Of a stretch of 64,000 nt of DNA, positions 2,612-64,000 are shown piece after piece. The notes beneath the pieces were generated by a model. That model searched no databases, was not told the origin of the DNA, and saw only the letters and a program-made list of their open reading frames with translations. Both the position numbers and the translations under genes were made by a program. Positions within the stretch are counted from its first letter, which is position 1; every line of letters starts with the position of its first letter. Location of the stretch: positions 49,104,001-49,168,000 of the forward strand of contig OX597830.1 in the NCBI GenBank assembly GCA_951406725.2, read 5' to 3'. Source of the stretch: Octopus vulgaris (lineage: Eukaryota).

Positions 2612-5126
2612 AGACAGCTTGAGCTATGAAAACAAGATTGCTCCTTAAAAGAATTATGAAAAACCAGAATCTGAAAACCTCATTATTCAGTGATAATTGA
2701 TGATTTTCTTTGTTTTAAACTCGTGCCAACTACTTTAGTTACGGAGGGTAGACAGGGTGTTCTGTCTTGCAGGTCTTCAGTTACGCAGCTGAAAAAAATA
2801 TTAACTTCCTCCAATCGAAAACTGATCAAGAATCTAATGTTTTCTTTTTTTCTCTCAATGTACATAACTTCTATAAGTTTTATTAACTGGTGAGATAGAT
2901 GTGTTTGTATTTAGCACGAAAATTTGTAGGTCAGCATAGCTGGGGAGGGAAGTAGAGTACTCAGCTGAGTTTTTCGAAGAGACTAAATTCCGACTAAGTC
3001 TTCCTTGGTCATTTTGTGGTCTTAATTCGGATGCCGTTTTAGGCTTGCCACCCTTATAAACCCTACAAAATGGTTTATTAGTATATGTGGCTTTCATGGA
3101 AAATGACAACACTATTAAAGTTAAATAGCACGTAATCAGCCTTCTTCTACGGTTAAACATTAAAACAGAGGAATATGGTACCAACTTTATTGTTACTGAC
3201 CTTGGTGAGATGAAAAGTAAAGTTAGCCTCATTGGGGTTTGAACTTACGATGCCATAAAGAAATACTGAAATCCATTTAGTTTAGTGTGATGGTTTTATA
3301 AGTGAGTTCTCTTTGCTTGCTTATTGCAGTTTGATATATTTACCATCAATTTAGTTGACTAAAATCAATATTCGATTAAACAGTATTGATATGACACTGC
3401 TTGAGCATTCTACCTTCAAAGATGTCTGTTTTACGTCAGGTACTGAGATTAATTAAAAATAATTTGGAATTAATTATAGCTTAAAACTAAAATGTTATTT
3501 CAAAGCTAAAAATATCCTAATGATTAGAATGAATATTTTATTTATATATTTTACTTGTATCATAATTTCTCAACTCCATTTTTATTTACAAACGTCTGGC
3601 CTTTTCCACCTCAAGTTCAAGTCTCGTCGAGGTTATTTACGCTTTTCCTCCTTCCAATCAAGTCCGAATAGAGATTATTCTCTCTCTGTCCCTCCCTTCC
3701 TGTATTCCTCTGTGAGAAGGGCAGTGGCAGATCACTCTCATCATCTTCTCCAGACATGCACAAAATATGGGTGTTGCATTAGCAACCTTTTCCGAAACCT
3801 GATATAATACAAAAACCGTCCAAGGACGGCTTGATGCAGACGCTGTCGACTAGAAACAACATTCGTGAAAAGATAGACATCACGAGTAGAATACTTCTCT
3901 TGCCTCATCACGTGGGAAAGATTGTTCGTTTCATTCCAGAGTTCAGACTCATACTTTGTTAATTATAGAATAGATTTGGTGCCCTCCATCGATAATATGA
4001 TAAATCCGTGAACAAATATTTAACTTATATTTCTGTATTTAAGCTAAATGTACCACATGATTACTATTCCAAAGTTTACTGAAATTCCCCCCATTAAATA
4101 TAAGAGCAATGGCGTAAGTATCAGTCGTCTATTTTGACTAAAAGCTAAGTATGATGAGTATGGTGTGGGAATACTGCGTTGCGGGTCTCTTGGAATCAGA
4201 ACATTTTCTTAGCTAAGTTAAAATGAGATACTACATATAATCAACCAACAAAAACGACTTTGTCTTGCGTTCTCTCTCTTCTTCTCTTTCCTTCCTTCTT
4301 TGTCTTGTTGTTGCGATGGTCTTTTCGCACTCTCAGCTTTTCTTTCTTTCTCTCGACTTGCCCATTACTCTTCCTTTCTCCATTAAGCTACAGGACATCA
4401 CAAACCCTTCATTGTTTTTCATTCAGTTTTCAATCGACCGTTCAACATTTTGCCGAAGAATACTTTGTTTAACTGAAATTGTTTGTTTTGTATTTTACTT
4501 TTTTATCTTCAGATCATAAGTGACACTATCTTATCAGTCTATTTTTTTTTCATTATTTATCTACCTTTCTTTCTATTGTATTCTCTTTCCGACAAACTTC
4601 TATCGTTTTTCCTCGCTACCTATCTTACTATTGTTTTCTCATCCACTATCCTTCTGTCATTCTAACCATCTACCATCGTACCAGCTCTCTCACTCTCTAT
4701 TCATTTATCTCTCGCTCTCTTTTTGCAGCTCTTGATTTAATTTGTTTTTGTATACTTCCACGTAGAAAACACATGTTCTTTACTATTACTATAAGCTTTA
4801 GCTCGCATAACTTAATGTTATTACCAAGTCAGGATAGTCTGTTTTTCTAGATACATGGGTTTTCGTTTTGTATTTATTCCCATTTGGCCCCCAACTTGCT
4901 TTTATTCGTCATTCGATCCACAGAGCTTGCTACTTTGCCTGTCGCTGCTTTTGCTTCAACTTTTTGTTCTCTCCCTGTTCGTCAATGGTGGCCGCTGGCC
5001 TAGACCTTACGGTACTGACACAGACAATTTGAACAATATTGTCGCATCTTGTTGAACGACAACTGACATGGAAAACAATGTTGGGGCTCGTTTGAGCTCT
5101 TGTGAACATGCACCTGTGTTTATATA

Positions 5127-27389: not shown

Positions 27390-28334
27390 TATATATATAT
27401 ATATATATATATATAAATGAGTTTCCTCCTCCAACGCCAGTAAAAGCATAAGTAGTAGTAAAACAAAAACAATTATGTAATGGAATATTATGTCCCCTTT
27501 ATTTGCAAACAATTGTATAGAAAAAAAAAAACTCGCTTTCAACCAGAAAAACGATTAGAAATACGAAAATCGCATTATTAACACTGGTTATTTCGGACAC
27601 AGAGTAATACAGTCTTTATTCACTATATTTTAATTTCATTTAATGAGGAAATAATAATGATAATTGTTTCAGAGTAAATAAACATGTCACATTTCATTAA
27701 CGTTGAAAAACAAACTTAAACATAAAAAATAATTTAAATTCAATTTACTTAATAAATACGAATCTAAATGACAATATAAAGTAACAAAACTACAGCAAAA
27801 TCTGGAGAGAGAAAGAAACATTCTGAACGGACAGATTAATAGCAATGATTTCCTTTCCAAATAATAATCTCGTACTTTACAACTTTTATAGCCATTGACG
27901 ATGCGTTAAATTCTCGCTTTTTTTTTATATTTCGTTTTTGTGGTGTGTAATTTTTGTTCTGCTGGTTTAATGTTCGGTAATAATTCAGATTCTTGATTAC
28001 CCCTTTTGCATAGATATTTAAAACCTTTATAGGATGGAACTGAACTTTGATTTTAATTTTCTGCGAATAAAAACGCTAACGAACGTTTATCGATATACTA
28101 GCTCTATGGGTATGAAGTACGACGACCATATTATCGGGGGTATATTTGGTAGGGCAAATCATTTTAGGCCGGGTGATGGGTTACTATGCAAAATTACTGA
28201 CGATGTATTTCCATGCAGCTAACGATATAATCAATTACGAGTATTATTATCATTACTGAATGAGGGATCAGTGCCTGCCGTCAATGTGACACTTGGGTAA
28301 AATATACGAAGCACAGTGTACTCATCATGATCTT

Positions 28335-28790
28335 TGAAGTCGTCGATCCTTCTATTGACTCTATCGTTTGATAGTGAAATCTGGGAAAGCTTGTATGTAC
28401 TATATTTCCCCAGAACGAGTTCTGCTGCACGGAGTAGGCTTGGTTTTATGAGAGACTCTCCGACGCTATGGTTCTTCATGGTCCTTGCAATCAACAATGA
28501 AATCTCATAGGCAGCCTCAACAACCATTGAAGTTTGTTGCCGAAAACCTCCACTACCGTCCAACTTAGCTTGCTTCAAGGAATGTCTTTTTGTTTCAAAG
28601 AACGCCTTGGGCTTGTCTGCAAGAGCAGGATGTGTTGTTCTCAGGTGGTGTTCCAGGCGTGAGAGTCGCATTCCACCATTGGTCAAAGTTTTGTAACATA
28701 TCACATACTAGGATACTCTTTTGAAAGGACACGAATCCAAGTCGAATATATTTGTCAAGCTACTTCCGTTTCTTTGCACTGATTGCGAAT
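28335..28790 (-). pseudogene. hAT Buster/Charlie transposase N-terminal fragment (ZBED8/SCAND3-like), disrupted
   Basis: KKRK*LDKYIRLGF, then CYKTLTNGGMRLSRLEHHLRTTHP..KPKAFF..EAAYEISLLIARTMKNHSVGESLIKP..ISLSNDRVNRRIDD. Confidence 0.88.
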
Positions 28791-51690: not shown

Positions 51691-51824
51691 ATTCGTGTGT
51701 GTATGTCTCTATTAGTAGCAATACAGTACAATATAATGTACTTGATATTCACAGCTAATACAATTTTTTCTGCGCTATAGTAACTAAATAATAACAACAA
51801 CAACAATAATAATAATGATGATGA

Positions 51825-51970
51825 ATTGAGACTCGCATTGTCGACCTCCAGAAAAGTACCATCCTATATTGTTCAAGAATTCTAAGACAGTTTCTTGAGG
51901 GCTGAGGTCACTTCTCACCAAACAAACAACATAGCATTCCTGCTAATTAAATTTAGCGTGTACTAGCTCG
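51825..51970 (+). mobile_element. Short R4/Dong-like LINE 3' end between AAT-type repeats
   Basis: IETRIVDLQKSTILYCSRILRQFLEG* (51825-51905) matches the LQK..L..ILR..L C-terminus seen at 56250 and 57446; AAT repeats on both sides. Confidence 0.65.
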
Positions 51971-54571: not shown

Positions 54572-55516
54572 TTGGGTCATCTCATAATGCGGTTTTTTAT
54601 ACTGTCTGGTGGACTTGCAAGCTTCCACAGGGCTTCTTTGCTTCTTGAAAAGGCTTCTTGCAAGGCTCCTCTTTTGTCCGTGAAGAAAAATACTCCTCTA
54701 GTACTGTTCTGACTTCGTCAACAGAATTCATATGTTTTCCATCCAAATGATTTTGAAGGCTGCGGAATAAATGATAATCAGATGGCGCAATATCCAACAA
54801 ATATGGTGGGAGGGGCATTGTTTTCCATTCACACTGCTCCAGCTTTCGGAATATCATCCTCGCTGTATGTGGCCGAGCATTATCCTGATGAAAGAACACG
54901 TTTCGTCTTGAAACGAAAGATGGTCGTTTTACTTCTAGTGTTGACTAAAGCCGCTAAGCTGCTCGCATTAGATTTCCTTTGTTATCGTTTGGTTTGGGTT
55001 CAAAAGTTCAAAGTGGACTAAACTTTTTATATCCCACCAAAGAGATAACAACGTCTTACGTGGGTGAAGACCTTCTTTAGCCTGGGGTTCCCGTGTGTCT
55101 CCTTTCTCTACCCACTGTCTTCGGTGCTTGACATTTTTATGGAGAACCCATTTCTCGTCACCAGTTACTATTCGGTCCAAAAAGGTTCATTCGTGAAACG
55201 TAACAGCAAAGAAAAGCGCACATTCGATTCCCCATATACTGCATTAATATTAATTGCACTATCCGTAGTGTACTTGCATTTATTCAACTCATAAATCAAA
55301 ATATGCCGAATATGCTCCTTTGTCACTTCCTTTACAGCCTTGAAAAAATAACTGTTAAAATCACACTGCATTCTTCAGATATTGCACTAAGAATTAGTAG
55401 AAGGTAAAGTTACTACCTGCTTTTAATAGCAAGTTGATGCAGGTAGTTTATCCCGACCTTCTCCGATTTTTAGTTCATGCTATTGAAAAAGCAGCATTGT
55501 TTATGGAATGACTCAA
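54572..55516 (-). mobile_element. Mariner (DD34D) transposon, internally deleted and frameshifted
   Basis: TIRs TTGGGTCATCTCATAA / TTGAGTCATTCCATAA; motifs IVTGDEKWV, HQDNARPH, DIAPSDYHLF with 34 residues between the last two Asp. Confidence 0.93.
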
Positions 55517-55729
55517 TTTATAGACGTATACATATATAACTTTATGCATGAATTTACCCGATGTGACCCTTGACTGCGAAATGAATGCACACATACGGAA
55601 AATGGATGCAAACCATGATGCATAGAATCCCACCCATAAAGGACAGTAACAGGAATTGTCTAAATGATCGTCGCACAAAATAAAGACTATATCAATTCCA
55701 TCTTCTGTTTATTTAAATAATAACAATAG

Positions 55730-55796
<67 letters not shown>

Positions 55797-55802
55797 CATA
55801 AT

Positions 55803-55859
<57 letters not shown>

Positions 55860-55928
55860 TTATTATATAACTGTTCAATATTTGGTAGACGGAGGCAAAT
55901 TTCTGCAGCATCATCAGCTAGACGTCCG

Positions 55929-56004
<76 letters not shown>

Positions 56005-56023
56005 GTTATTGTTATTATTGTTA

Positions 56024-56055
<32 letters not shown>

Positions 56056-56070
56056 GTTGGCATATGCCAA

Positions 56071-56146
<76 letters not shown>

Positions 56147-56149
<3 letters not shown>

Positions 56150-56880
56150 TAGTTTTATTTTTATTTTTATAGCGTGCTTTCACTTCACTACCGAGCGCAG
56201 CTCTGTGTGCCTTGGGTATGTGCTGTGATTTGTTGTGATGCTCTGATGGTTATTGTATGGAAAGTGTTCTGCGTAGGATGTGTGCAGTGCCTAGTAGTGC
56301 AATTTTCTGTATGTTATATGTGTTTGTAAGTCCTGGTGTTTTTGTTATGTATTTGTCTGAATATTTTTTTATCATGCCTAATGCACCTACTATGATAGGA
56401 ATTGTTTCTGTTTTCAGATTCCACATTCTAGTTACCAATTGTTTCTGTTTTCAGATTCCACATTCTAGTTACCAATTGTTTCTGTTTTCAGATTCCACAT
56501 TCTAGTTACCAATTGTTTCTGTTTTCAGATTCCTCATTCTAGTTACCAATTGTTTCTGTTTTCAGATTCCACATTCTAGTTACCAATTGTTTCTGTTTTC
56601 AGATTCCACATTCTAGTTACCAATTGTTTCTGTTTTCAGATTCCACATTCTAGTTACCAATTGTTTCTGTTTTCAGATTCCTCATTCTAGTTACCAATTG
56701 TTTCTGTTTTCAGATTCCACATTCTAGTTACCAATTGTTTCTGTTTTCAGATTCCACATTCTAGTTACCAATTGTTTCTGTTTTCAGATTCCACATTCTA
56801 GTTACCAATTGTTTCTGTTTTCAGATTCCACATTCTAGTTACCAATTGTTTCTGTTTTCAGATTCCACATTCTAGTTACC
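56147..56880 (-). mobile_element. 5'-truncated R4/Dong-clade LINE (REL endonuclease C-terminus + 3' UTR) with amplified 5' end
   Basis: VTRMWNLKTETIPIIVGALGMIKK..IQKIALLGTAHILRRTLSIQ*; (TAA)n on both sides, the known Dong target. Confidence 0.88.
56400..56880. repeat. 13 x 37-bp tandem repeat AATTGTTTCTGTTTTCAGATTCCACATTCTAGTTACC
   Basis: 481 bp = 13 x 37; units 4 and 8 share an A>T variant (TTCCTCATT); no spacers. Confidence 0.97.
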
Positions 56881-56883
56881 ATA

Positions 56884-56937
<54 letters not shown>

Positions 56938-56960
56938 TATTATTATTATTATTATTATTA

Positions 56961-57162
56961 TTTTTTTTTTGTGGTATGATTTCTTGTTTGTATTTGTCAG
57001 CTTCCTTAAATACTGAGAAAAGTTTTTTGTTTTGCTCGTGTTTTGCCGCTATCTGGATCAGTTTTCCTTCCTTCTGAAGTAGATGTTTTTGCAGTCCTAT
57101 GGTGGTTATTTTATAGTAGTTTTCCAGTTGTATAAGGCCTCTACCACCTTCTATACGTTGTA

Positions 57163-57164
<2 letters not shown>
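56961..57164 (-). mobile_element. Internal R4/Dong LINE fragment (post-RT region)
   Basis: IQRIEGGRGLIQLENYYKITTIGLQKHL..; GGRGL motif; ends in A10 then (TAA)n. Confidence 0.8.
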
Positions 57165-57240
<76 letters not shown>

Positions 57241-57266
57241 CATTATTATTATTATTATTATTATTA

Positions 57267-57701
57267 CTTTTTTCTTCTTTCAAATTTTCTTCCATTTCTT
57301 GCCGAGTGTCTTCCCGACTCCTAGGGCAAAGAAACTCATAGTGTATATTGGTAGGCCATTAAACCAAACTCAGTAGTTCGTTCATATTTTTTACTTAAAA
57401 AAATTTTTTTAAAGTTAAATTAAAATACATGAGCAGCAACAGTTCTCACATCGACAATGCTCTTCTCAATATGTGTGATGTACCAGTTAAGACAATCTTT
57501 TGCACTTCTTGCAGGGATGGTAAGCCAGGGATCATTCTCATATAATTTTCGGTTCCCTTCTTGATCATTCCTAGTGCTCCTACGATCACTGGTATTGTAA
57601 CCGCCTTGAGATGCCACATTTTCTCAATTTCAATGAGTAGGTCTTTATATTTTCTGAGCTTGTCAAACTCTTTCGCTGAGATATTATGATCACAGGGGAT
57701 G

Positions 57702-57706
<5 letters not shown>
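57267..57706 (-). mobile_element. 5'-truncated R4/Dong LINE, second subfamily (REL C-terminus + 3' UTR)
   Basis: SIPCDHNISAKEFDKLRKYKDLLIEIEKMWHLKAVTIPVIVGALG..VQKIVLTGTSHILRRALSM*; KxxKY REL motif; (TAA)n flanks. Confidence 0.9.
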
Positions 57707-57761
<55 letters not shown>

Positions 57762-58273
57762 GATAAACTAAACAGAAGATGGATTTTGATATATCTTCCA
57801 ACGTTTTGAAGTACTTCAAATGAGAGGCTGTGATTTGAGGCATCAGGTGAGAAATATATGTTGTACACACACCATTTTAATTTGTTTGAGACATCCGTGC
57901 CTCACAGACGTTTGAGTGGGAAAGCAAGACAACTTTACCATGAGATCTTTCCTTCCTTCCTTTCAGTTCGAAATGCGACACAGTTCGCTATGTGTAATTC
58001 ACCGTTCTACTATGTCAGCCATCGGTTGCTCTTCCGCTAGATCTCATGCATATTGCTTGATTGCATGCAACTGAACCTCTCACGCATGTGGGATATTACA
58101 AGGAACCCAGCATTGTGGAATAGCGTTAGTGTGACATTTGTGGGGGGGGGGGCGGTTCAGGGATTGACCAATCTGGTTCTTGTGGTTTTGTGAGCTGGTA
58201 TGCGTTTCTTTAATTCAATATTTGTCATATATACATACACATACATACATACATACATATATACATACCTACC

Positions 58274-62011: not shown

Positions 62012-62077
<66 letters not shown>

Positions 62078-64000
62078 TGTGTCTGTCCGCTCTTACAGAA
62101 TCTACCACAGCAATTAAGACCAAGAACTCCGAGGAGGAAGAGGAGGAGGAGGTGGAGGAGATGATGATGATGATGATGATTTCAACAGGAAACCTCACAT
62201 TGTAATTTACCTCAGTGGTCATAGTACCGATTCTGTAGTGGTGGTGGTGGCGGTCGTCGTCGTCGTCAGTTCCCCTAAGCTTTTCGCTACACATATTCTA
62301 CCACAGCTTCTAATTTACACAAATGTACAGAGCAACAAAACGATTGGATATTGTTTGATATTTTAAGCCTATTTGTAACATTACTGATTAGGGAGATTTC
62401 TTCCCATATGAAGGTAGCACTATGTAAACGGTTGGTTGCTATTCTTACTGTGTTGTGCAAGTGGTGCGAATGTAAGGTAGAGAATGCAAATGTTACTAAA
62501 CTAACTGCAGCGTATATAACTACATTACTCCGCCTCCACAATACTGAACCATATGTTATGTCATTTCATTTTGCAGTGATTGGGAAAGAATAAAAACCTT
62601 AAGAGGGCAAAACGAACGATTATAAGTCTCTCCGTTTGACAACTTTATCAATTCTAGATGCCGTTTTCTATTACATCCTACAAGAGGATCTCCGTGCAGC
62701 TTTAATACTCGGAATAAAAGCCTGTCTTGATCGCAAGTGTGCATAATATACATATGATTTAATAAAGTGACATTCATAGGAATGTTCCAATGTGCAGGGA
62801 CGTGACAGTGTTTGCTACTCCCACGTATGATAGCATTATATGATTATATTAATACTGACACACAAGACAATGTTCCTTCTGATATTTTGCGTTTTGTGTC
62901 TCAGATAATAAAGTCCTTAAGATACTATTGATCCTTTAAGGAACTGAATCTAGAGATCTATTGATTCTATACTTATATATTCGGCATTTTGAATATCAAG
63001 TCATTCGAAAATATATATGATGTGCATGAATAAATGCAATATTTGTAGATTATTGAATAAAGTAACGTAATTTCAGACAGAAATATATGAATGATTTCAA
63101 AGCTTAACATGAAAAATACATTGAAAACATTCAAACATTGACATAATAAGACGATAAATATAGATAACTACATAGATAGAGATGATAAACACGATAAAAC
63201 TAGACATAGCTGGAATGTACACAATGAGACAATTATGTGGTTAGGAGAAAATATGGATGTGCAGAGATAGCAACAAAATAAAGAAAATGGAAGAAAACAT
63301 TACTAATTTATGCCTATCACTTGAAGTGTAGATATTTTTCGCCACAAGTGGTTAAGTGCTATCATAATTTAAAGTAGTTAAGTATCACCTGTCCAAAGAT
63401 TATGAAGAGCTTGTTTGAACAAACATGTTGTTAACAATGTTCGCAGATGCATTAAGCATACGTATATTCTTATGGTTTTAAAGTCAAATGCATGACTTAA
63501 TGTCGGAAGAAATAGCGTTATACACGTGTCCTTATATTTTGGTTCCATTTGAGTGACACGTGTGGGAGGGTGAGAACGGATAATATGACCGTGAGAAAGA
63601 AAAGAAAATAACATATTTGGTTATCTGGCAGAAAATAGAAACAACGCAAAAACAAGACTTGTAATTTAAAACGATTGAAATGTGAGTTGACAAACGGGCG
63701 ATTCTGTTCTGTGATGCTACTCAATTATGTTGTTGAAAAGAGCGAGGCGAAGGTTTGATACCGTCCTACAAATGCGAGATAGAAAAAAAAAGTTTAGAAA
63801 TAGTGGGTTTTGAGTTTCACTTTATCTATTCATATGGCTAAAAGAATACTGCTCTGTGATTGCTAAATAAAACTGATGAAAAACGGTGAACGTCATCTAT
63901 TGCATGGAGGTCTCACGGATATCTATAAACCTTAGAATAAACCAAACGGTAGCAAAAACGGAATGAAGATATAACCATACGAAAAGAAACGTTATATATA

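What the first reader, a model, noticed from the sequence alone, without database searches (positions are those of the whole stretch)
55931..57762. (TAA)n array strung with non-collinear R4/Dong LINE pieces
Seen: three fragments on one strand, each bounded by (TAA)n: 3' end of subfamily 2, an internal GGRGL fragment with no 3' UTR ending in A10, then 3' end of subfamily 1. The order is not that of an intact ORF. Established: Dong elements target (TAA)n by target-primed reverse transcription, normally starting at the RNA 3' end. Inference: the UTR-less internal piece implies internal A-rich priming or template jumping between (UAA)n and the RNA body, so the RT may both target and lengthen TAA arrays in a telomerase-like feedback loop. 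Smaller examples: 51825-51970 and perhaps 62077-62128.
Basis: partly seen in the sequence, partly recalled or inferred. Interest (0 to 1): 0.7.

Follow-up and report, generated by a model that had tools for sequence, protein, structure and literature searches.

The report
LINE insertions stutter their 5' ends
Three pieces of young jumping genes sit in one TAA repeat; one begins with 13 head-to-tail copies of its first 37 bases, a stutter seen in half of the full-length copies sampled and likely made while the new copy is being joined to the chromosome.

Summary
The three TAA-bounded pieces are real R4/Dong-type LINE fragments, but they are not scrambled. B and C are collinear parts of one family (29 of 29 best-hit copies); A is a second family. 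This reiteration is family-wide: 25 of 50 full-length and 7 of 128 truncated 5' junctions, arrays up to about 20 units, against 3 duplications in 167 kb of element body. Internal TAA-ended pieces like B are rare (2 of 100). Filled sites carry more TAA than empty arrays (median 48 vs 16.5 units; length-biased null 21), but with no 3' excess, so telomerase-like extension at priming is unsupported, and later slippage is not excluded. Best reading: stacked independent insertions, with the 5' junction likely formed by repeated abortive second-strand priming on one cDNA end; B likely came from a rare aberrant priming at an internal A-rich site. The polymerase is unidentified and no reads or alleles were examined. 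New variant of a known kind; interest 0.6.

The parts
57705..57761 (-). (TAA)19 upstream of piece A
57267..57704 (-). Piece A: 5'-truncated 3' end of family A (C-terminal 85 aa of the restriction-like endonuclease region, stop, 3' UTR)
   Evidence: 58% identity to family C aa 1142-1224; its first 300 nt are 99.0-99.3% identical to five other copies
57163..57266 (-). (TAA)34: tail of A and 5' flank of B
56971..57162 (-). Piece B: internal fragment of family C (about 2803-2995 of L180), no 3' UTR, ending 1 nt before an internal TAATAA
56961..56970 (-). A10, absent from intact copies; junction unique in the genome
56881..56960 (-). (TAA)8 A (TAA)17 plus 4 junction bases
56437..56880 (-). 12 extra head-to-tail copies of the first 37 nt of piece C (5'-junction reiteration); units 6 and 10 share one substitution
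   Evidence: (12 of 12 genome-wide unit junctions are here)
56145..56436 (-). Piece C: 5'-truncated 3' end of family C (3687-3978) with canonical 3' UTR
   Evidence: (99.7% to L012)
56073..56144 (-). (TAA)24 tail of C
56055..56072 (.). 18-nt palindrome; one arm with adjoining repeat bases matches 14 nt of family C at position 3425, inside the interval missing between B and C; unique in the genome
55931..56054 (-). Degenerate (TAA/CAA) run of about 41 units closing the array
51822..51968 (+). Short canonical 3' end of a third R4/Dong-like family; not an internal fragment
   Evidence: 72% to one other locus; translation ends in the family's C-terminal motif and a stop

Best explanation
The array holds three stacked pieces of two young R4/Dong-type LINE families, likely from separate insertions, and piece C begins with 13 copies of its own first 37 bases, likely written during 5'-junction formation by repeated abortive second-strand priming on one cDNA end. 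Shown: two families; B and C collinear; reiteration confined to 5' junctions, at 50% of full-length and 5% of truncated copies; within an array the stop point and the 5' leader are constant to about one base, while between arrays both differ; some units include target TAA or upstream flank. Inferred: the target's top-strand 3' end is extended 12-41 nt on the cDNA, released, re-primed at the cDNA end, and repeats this until it reads through; excursions onto target DNA add TAA on the 5' side; the element's own RT is the likelier polymerase, and host polymerase theta is possible. B most likely (about 60%) came from a rare priming on an RNA ending or mispaired at the internal A-rich TAATAA site, with the A10 added at initiation; a later deletion (about 30%) or early polyadenylation (about 10%) remain. 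At least one DNA-level block duplication probably enlarged the 37-nt array afterwards.
For: Reiteration in 15 of 30 near-full-length copies on C1 (two are probably one duplicated locus), 10 of 20 full-length copies chosen in advance on C2-C4 (9 by script, 1 by eye), 7 of 128 truncated copies; full-length vs truncated P = 6e-11. 521 unit junctions of one type genome-wide against 302 matching 5' bodies. Only 3 real tandem duplications in 166,668 nt of element body. Aperiodic one-base alternation at unit junctions with a locus-specific leader in L184, L279, L304, L306, L256. Units with target TAA or flank: L124, L061, family A copy L182; flank duplications next to the junction in L066 and L232, the latter followed by 22 TAA units. 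Precedent for the enzyme activities: non-templated addition and microhomology priming in R2 (PMC2718515, passages); template jumping and concatemers by L1 ORF2p (PMC10830420, passages); 5' extra nucleotides that depend on host factors in ZfL2-2 (PMC4245944, passages).
Against: Sequence cannot separate second-strand re-priming from first-strand jumping: microhomologies and the outer-shorter order of units (L132, L310) fit both. Locus-specific leaders could be donor-specific RNA ends. The window's own 13 units have identical junctions and a shared variant four units apart, which points to DNA-level amplification here. Separate origin of B and C is weakly supported (3 of 192 vs 0 of 265 differences, P = 0.07), and L200 has a similar collinear gap bridged by TAA inside one full-length copy. 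No reads or second allele were examined, so assembly accuracy of the array is assumed. Samples come mostly from one contig, and positives were curated by eye.
Confidence: 0.55

Rival explanations
1. First-strand repeat addition: the RT runs off the RNA 5' end and jumps back onto a short, protected 5' RNA fragment (or realigns by 1-3 nt of microhomology), copying it repeatedly, much as telomerase does, before the cDNA joins the target.
For: Rate is ten times higher at the true 5' end than at truncations (25 of 50 vs 7 of 128); fixed stop point within an array; Bombyx Dong RNA is ribozyme-cut at the element's 5' end (PMC3774820, passages); end-to-end jumping is documented for these RTs.
Against: Leaders differ between loci but repeat faithfully within a locus, whereas fresh non-templated bases would be expected at each run-off; units containing genomic flank or TAA (L124, L182, L061) need a DNA template.
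Confidence: 0.22
2. Post-insertion DNA slippage or unequal exchange made the tandem units and the extra TAA; the 5' junction is an ordinary microhomology join.
For: The genome is very rich in expanding simple repeats; GAA and TAA runs expand inside the element; the window's array has a repeated variant; both halves of a split microsatellite could regrow to about 20 units.
Against: Duplications are about 70-fold (truncated) to 200-fold (all) denser in the first 45 nt than in the body (arithmetic); aperiodic junction alternation in long arrays. It remains a good explanation for the TAA excess and for part of the copy number.
Confidence: 0.13
3. One reading: the RT often primes internally or jumps between (UAA)n and the RNA body and lengthens TAA at the priming (3') end, as a telomerase-like loop that makes scrambled arrays.
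For: B's break at an internal TAATAA with A10; L195 and L200 break at TAA with short microhomology; filled sites carry about twice the length-biased TAA.
Against: Only 2 of 100 copies break at TAA; 79 run unbroken to the canonical end; no 3' excess, and the pure run next to the 5' junction is the longer one (17 vs 10 units, P = 0.012 in 96 copies; P = 0.12 in 55 solitary copies); 14 of 16 loci with TAA at B's break site are microsatellites born inside a continuing element; B and C are collinear.
Confidence: 0.1

Closest known systems
Dong (Bombyx mori; DongAg, DongBg), R4 clade non-LTR retrotransposons; 'Dong-R4' LINEs of Octopus
   Same: TAA microsatellite target (PMC3812793 passage); single ORF with RT, CCHC knuckle and restriction-like endonuclease; young and abundant, as reported for Octopus vulgaris Dong-R4 (5 families, 1129 recent insertions; PMC13282606 passages).
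   Different: No report of 5'-terminal reiteration was found in searches; the original Dong and R4 papers were not read. No direct comparison with a named Dong sequence was possible.
[quoted passage not shown]
   Same: Microhomology joins, extra bases, tandem duplications of 13-28 nt; one figure legend lists a three-fold repeat (PMC3774820; PMC2718515; PMC11331408; passages only).
   Different: R2 duplications are target sequence carried in the RNA, usually two copies, about 5% in one beetle lineage; here the element's own first bases are repeated up to about 20 times in half of full-length copies and also at internal truncation points.
5' extra nucleotides of ZfL2-2 and polymerase-theta templated insertions
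   Same: Junction filler copied from nearby sequence and dependent on host factors (PMC4245944; PMC3280974; passages).
   Different: Usually short and not reported there as long perfect tandem arrays; iterative templating by polymerase theta is recalled, not tested.
Telomerase and DRT2 repeat synthesis
   Same: A short template is copied many times head to tail (PMC12039810, search listing only).
   Different: Those use a dedicated structured RNA template with a fixed unit; here the unit varies by event (12-41 nt) and no function is shown.

Membership tests
R4/Dong clade non-LTR retrotransposon | Single long ORF with a non-LTR RT domain | tested here: met
   Natural copy L180: one frame of about 1,230 codons with one stop; Pfam RVT_1 1.8e-25; best solved relatives are R2 proteins, E 3e-28
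R4/Dong clade non-LTR retrotransposon | [quoted passage not shown] | tested here: met
   CCHC motif and RHD / PD-D / K motifs read directly (motif names recalled); Pfam zf-RVT 7e-6, just under its cut-off, and no APE family hit in the 586-aa part scanned; the N-terminal part was not scanned
R4/Dong clade non-LTR retrotransposon | Insertion into (TAA)n | tested here: met
   158 of 168 scored 5' junctions at a TAA run; 79 of 100 copies run unbroken to the 3' end followed by a TAA-type tail
R4/Dong clade non-LTR retrotransposon | RT phylogeny groups with named Dong/R4 rather than R2, NeSL or HERO | tested here: inconclusive
   1674 homologs at E <= 1e-20, best 120 listed at 38-59% identity, none named Dong or R4; no reference sequence available; no tree built
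R4/Dong clade non-LTR retrotransposon | HDV-like ribozyme at the 5' end | tested here: inconclusive
   No Rfam match near a gathering score in L180:930-1300; fold z = +1.0; a nested pseudoknot is not scored by that fold
Telomerase-like repeat addition at the priming (3') end | Extra repeats on the primer side of insertions | tested here: not met
   3' median 23 vs 5' median 27 units in 55 solitary copies; paralog comparison, not alleles
Telomerase-like repeat addition at the priming (3') end | Processive repeat synthesis by the RT on its own RNA | not testable with these tools
   needs purified protein

The most novel reading that the evidence does not exclude
The Dong RT is itself a repeat-adding polymerase at the 5' junction: it copies a 12-41-nt terminal template up to about 20 times and also re-copies target TAA, so each insertion founds a minisatellite and roughly doubles the TAA target, a feedback loop that helps build this genome's TAA arrays and stacked insertions.
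Probability: 0.25. Interest if true: 0.8.

Novelty: new variant of a known kind. Interest (0 to 1): 0.6.

Why it matters
How the second strand and 5' junction of a LINE insertion are made is still open. This family leaves many natural records of repeated priming attempts (521 unit junctions of a single type in the genome), with readable stop points and restart positions, so the question becomes testable by sequence and by assay. It also shows a direct route from a LINE insertion to a new minisatellite, and a roughly twofold TAA excess at filled sites that could let the element enlarge its own target. For R2-type gene insertion tools it flags a possible junction by-product. The particular A-B-C array is otherwise an ordinary pile-up of insertions.

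Tried and rejected
Composite non-autonomous element amplified as a unit: rejected; the 37-nt junction, the B-A5 junction and the palindrome occur only here. Recurrent early polyadenylation at B's end: not supported, one genome-wide hit, and a polyadenylation-like hexamer (list recalled) lies 10-40 nt upstream of 34% of all element positions. Nested insertion of C into B's element: no remainder of B's element after C. Long target-site duplication as the general source of extra TAA: 7 of 96 copies share non-repeat words across the insertion, and most of those are neighbouring repeats; not general, not excluded for pure arrays. My first 5'/3' pure-run comparison (17 vs 8.5) was biased by its definition and was redone. 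Dropped rows: 10 of 168 junctions far from TAA; 3 of 9 script-flagged truncated reiterations rejected by eye (L212, L251, L150) and L124 added; 18 of 21 flagged body repeats were chance 10-mers, not duplications; 2 of 26 'empty' arrays were in fact filled. Sequencing-run search: no RNA holder listed; no evidence either way on expression, and no reads were laid, so the array's read support and allelic state are open. No earlier findings of the scan matched. Supplements of the cited papers were not read and could list multi-copy 5' junctions.

Full report
Setting. The window lies at G000:C17:49104001-49168000 in a 2.8-Gb, 227-contig genome that is dense in simple repeats. An octopus is my inference from these features; a repeat annotation of Octopus vulgaris (2.8 Gb) lists 5 recently active Dong-R4 families with 1129 insertions (PMC13282606, passages). 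I did not test the species.

Anatomy. On the minus strand the region reads (TAA)19, piece A (57704-57267), (TAA)34, piece B (57162-56971), A10, (TAA)8 A (TAA)17, four junction bases, twelve extra 37-nt units (56880-56437), piece C (56436-56145), (TAA)24, an 18-nt palindrome (56055-56072) and a degenerate TAA run to 55931. The 37-nt unit is C's own first 37 bases, so the array has 13 copies; units 6 and 10 share one substitution.

Families. In 29 of 29 other best-hit copies of B, C follows about 680 nt downstream in the same element. A natural full-length copy, L180 (3,978 nt), has one reading frame with an RT domain, a CCHC knuckle and restriction-like endonuclease motifs, and one stop. B maps to about 2803-2995 and C to 3687-3978. 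Exact anchors occur 3751 times (B region) and 9188 times (3' UTR). A belongs to a second young family, 54% identical in protein over 714 aa, with copies 99% identical over A's first 300 nt. So the array is one family-A end followed by two collinear family-C pieces. The 37-nt junction (12 of 12 hits here), the B-A5 junction (1 hit) and the palindrome (1 hit) are private to this locus, so it is not an amplified composite.

Are internal pieces common? Of the first 100 B-anchor matches on C1, 79 run unbroken to the canonical 3' end with a TAA-type tail; 20 are broken and 1 fell under the identity cut-off. Among the 20, most are internal GAA expansions, internal deletions or duplications, or older copies cut by other sequence; 2 break at a TAA run (L195, and L200, where collinear parts are bridged by a short TAA run). 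A genome-wide pattern for TAA within 30 nt of B's end gave 27 matches at 16 loci; in 14 of 16 the element continues after a newly born TAA/GAA microsatellite, the exceptions being the window and one old fragment. B ends 1 nt before one of only three TAATAA sites in the element, and intact copies have no A10 there. R2 polymerase adds non-templated bases when it starts from an unannealed primer (PMC2718515, passages), so an aberrant priming event is my preferred origin for B; a deletion would need extra steps to create the A10. Whether B and C share a donor is unresolved: their joint haplotype was absent from 129 B-C pairs (some loci counted twice, 29 chosen as best hits), and B differs at 3 of 192 sites against 0 of 265 for C (P = 0.07).

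The family-wide signal. Head-to-tail repeats of the first 12-41 nt sit at 15 of 30 near-full-length 5' junctions on C1 (L138 and L235 are probably one duplicated locus) and at 10 of 20 further full-length copies picked in advance from C2-C4 (9 by script, L319 by eye). Among truncated copies the count is 7 of 128 after curation; the difference has P = 6e-11. Arrays reach 18-20 units (L132, L184). One unit-junction type alone occurs 521 times in the genome, against 302 matching 5' bodies. A full-length copy met in the random sample has ten units (L279) and a family-A copy has two (L182). In 166,668 nt of element body only 3 of 21 flagged repeats are true tandem duplications, so the process is tied to the 5' junction.

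What the units say. Within an array the stop point and the purine-rich leader are constant except for an aperiodic one-base shift; between arrays both differ. The outermost unit is often shortened and joined to TAA by microhomology. Some units contain target TAA or upstream flank (L124, L061, L182), and in L232 a 27-nt copy of downstream flank is followed by 22 TAA units before the element begins. I read this as repeated priming on one DNA end with switches onto target DNA, that is abortive second-strand synthesis. First-strand jumping on a short RNA fragment predicts the same microhomologies and is the main rival. The window's own array has identical junctions and a variant repeated four units apart, so some later DNA-level duplication is likely there.

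TAA length. In 55 solitary insertions the two flanks total a median of 48 TAA units (5' 27, 3' 23). Twenty-four empty arrays from 400 kb of evenly spaced regions have a median of 16.5; the length-biased null median is 21 (95% range 16-26), or 26 (19-36) under a cubic bias, and 71% of filled totals exceed the longest empty array. This is a paralog comparison with a small empty set, and regrowth of both halves by slippage is a sufficient alternative.

51822-51968 is a normal 3' end of a third family. 62076-62130 shows no match to families A or C.

Literature. Dong elements target TAA (PMC3812793, passage), and Bombyx Dong RNA self-cleaves at the element's 5' end (PMC3774820, passages). R2 junctions show tandem 13-28-nt duplications of target sequence, one listed three-fold; R2-based insertions in cells fall into anneal, join, snap-back and extra-template classes (PMC11331408, passages); cDNA base-pairing to the upstream target is described as the favoured priming route (PMC13580325, passages); L1 ORF2p jumps templates and makes concatemers (PMC10830420, passages); host factors shape 5' extras (PMC4245944; PMC3280974; passages). 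Passages of bioRxiv 10.1101/2024.12.14.628481 and PMC4640811 added context only. Nine searches found no report of high-copy reiteration of a LINE's own 5' end; the library lacks most subscription papers, the original Dong and R4 papers were not read, and no supplements were opened.

Verdict. The overlooked 13 x 37-nt array is an extreme case of a frequent 5'-junction reiteration in this family: a new variant of known LINE junction chemistry whose polymerase and strand remain to be shown. Interest 0.6.

Noticed in passing
family C position about 2997-3036 (L075-L100, L055, L140, L157, L181, L192): The element carries an internal GAA proto-repeat next to TAATAA that expands to tens of units and seeds new (TAA)n(GAA)m microsatellites (14 loci), so the element can grow its own target inside its ORF; several breaks (L145, L200, window) also fall near 2970-2995.
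   Followed up: partly
window 56055-56072: Palindrome inside the TAA run whose arm matches element position 3425, within the interval missing between B and C; looks like a snap-back micro-insertion; unique in the genome.
   Followed up: partly
L011 (G000:C7:15146250-15149449): About 250 nt of flank between TAA runs is duplicated on both sides of a truncated copy, like a very long target-site duplication.
   Followed up: no
window 55716-55930: A second TAA array in the opposite orientation lies 71 nt from the end of the studied array; the spacer resembles one other locus (81%).
   Followed up: no
L008, L009, L195: Very long TAA or degenerate TAA/TGA arrays (hundreds to over a thousand units) surround some young copies.
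   Followed up: no
window 54597-54944 (-): Reading frame resembling a mariner-type transposase fragment (family name recalled, not searched).
   Followed up: no
window 28231-28707 (-): Reading frame resembling a hAT/Buster-type transposase fragment (name recalled, not searched).
   Followed up: no
loci L128, L146, L228, L286 and others: One recurring repeat of about 600 nt, itself bounded by TAA runs, often lies next to the insertions; possibly a TAA-associated SINE or non-autonomous partner.
   Followed up: no
one search run list: DNA close to family C (share of words 0.63-0.91) is held in runs under eight organism labels, so the family is not confined to one label.
   Followed up: no
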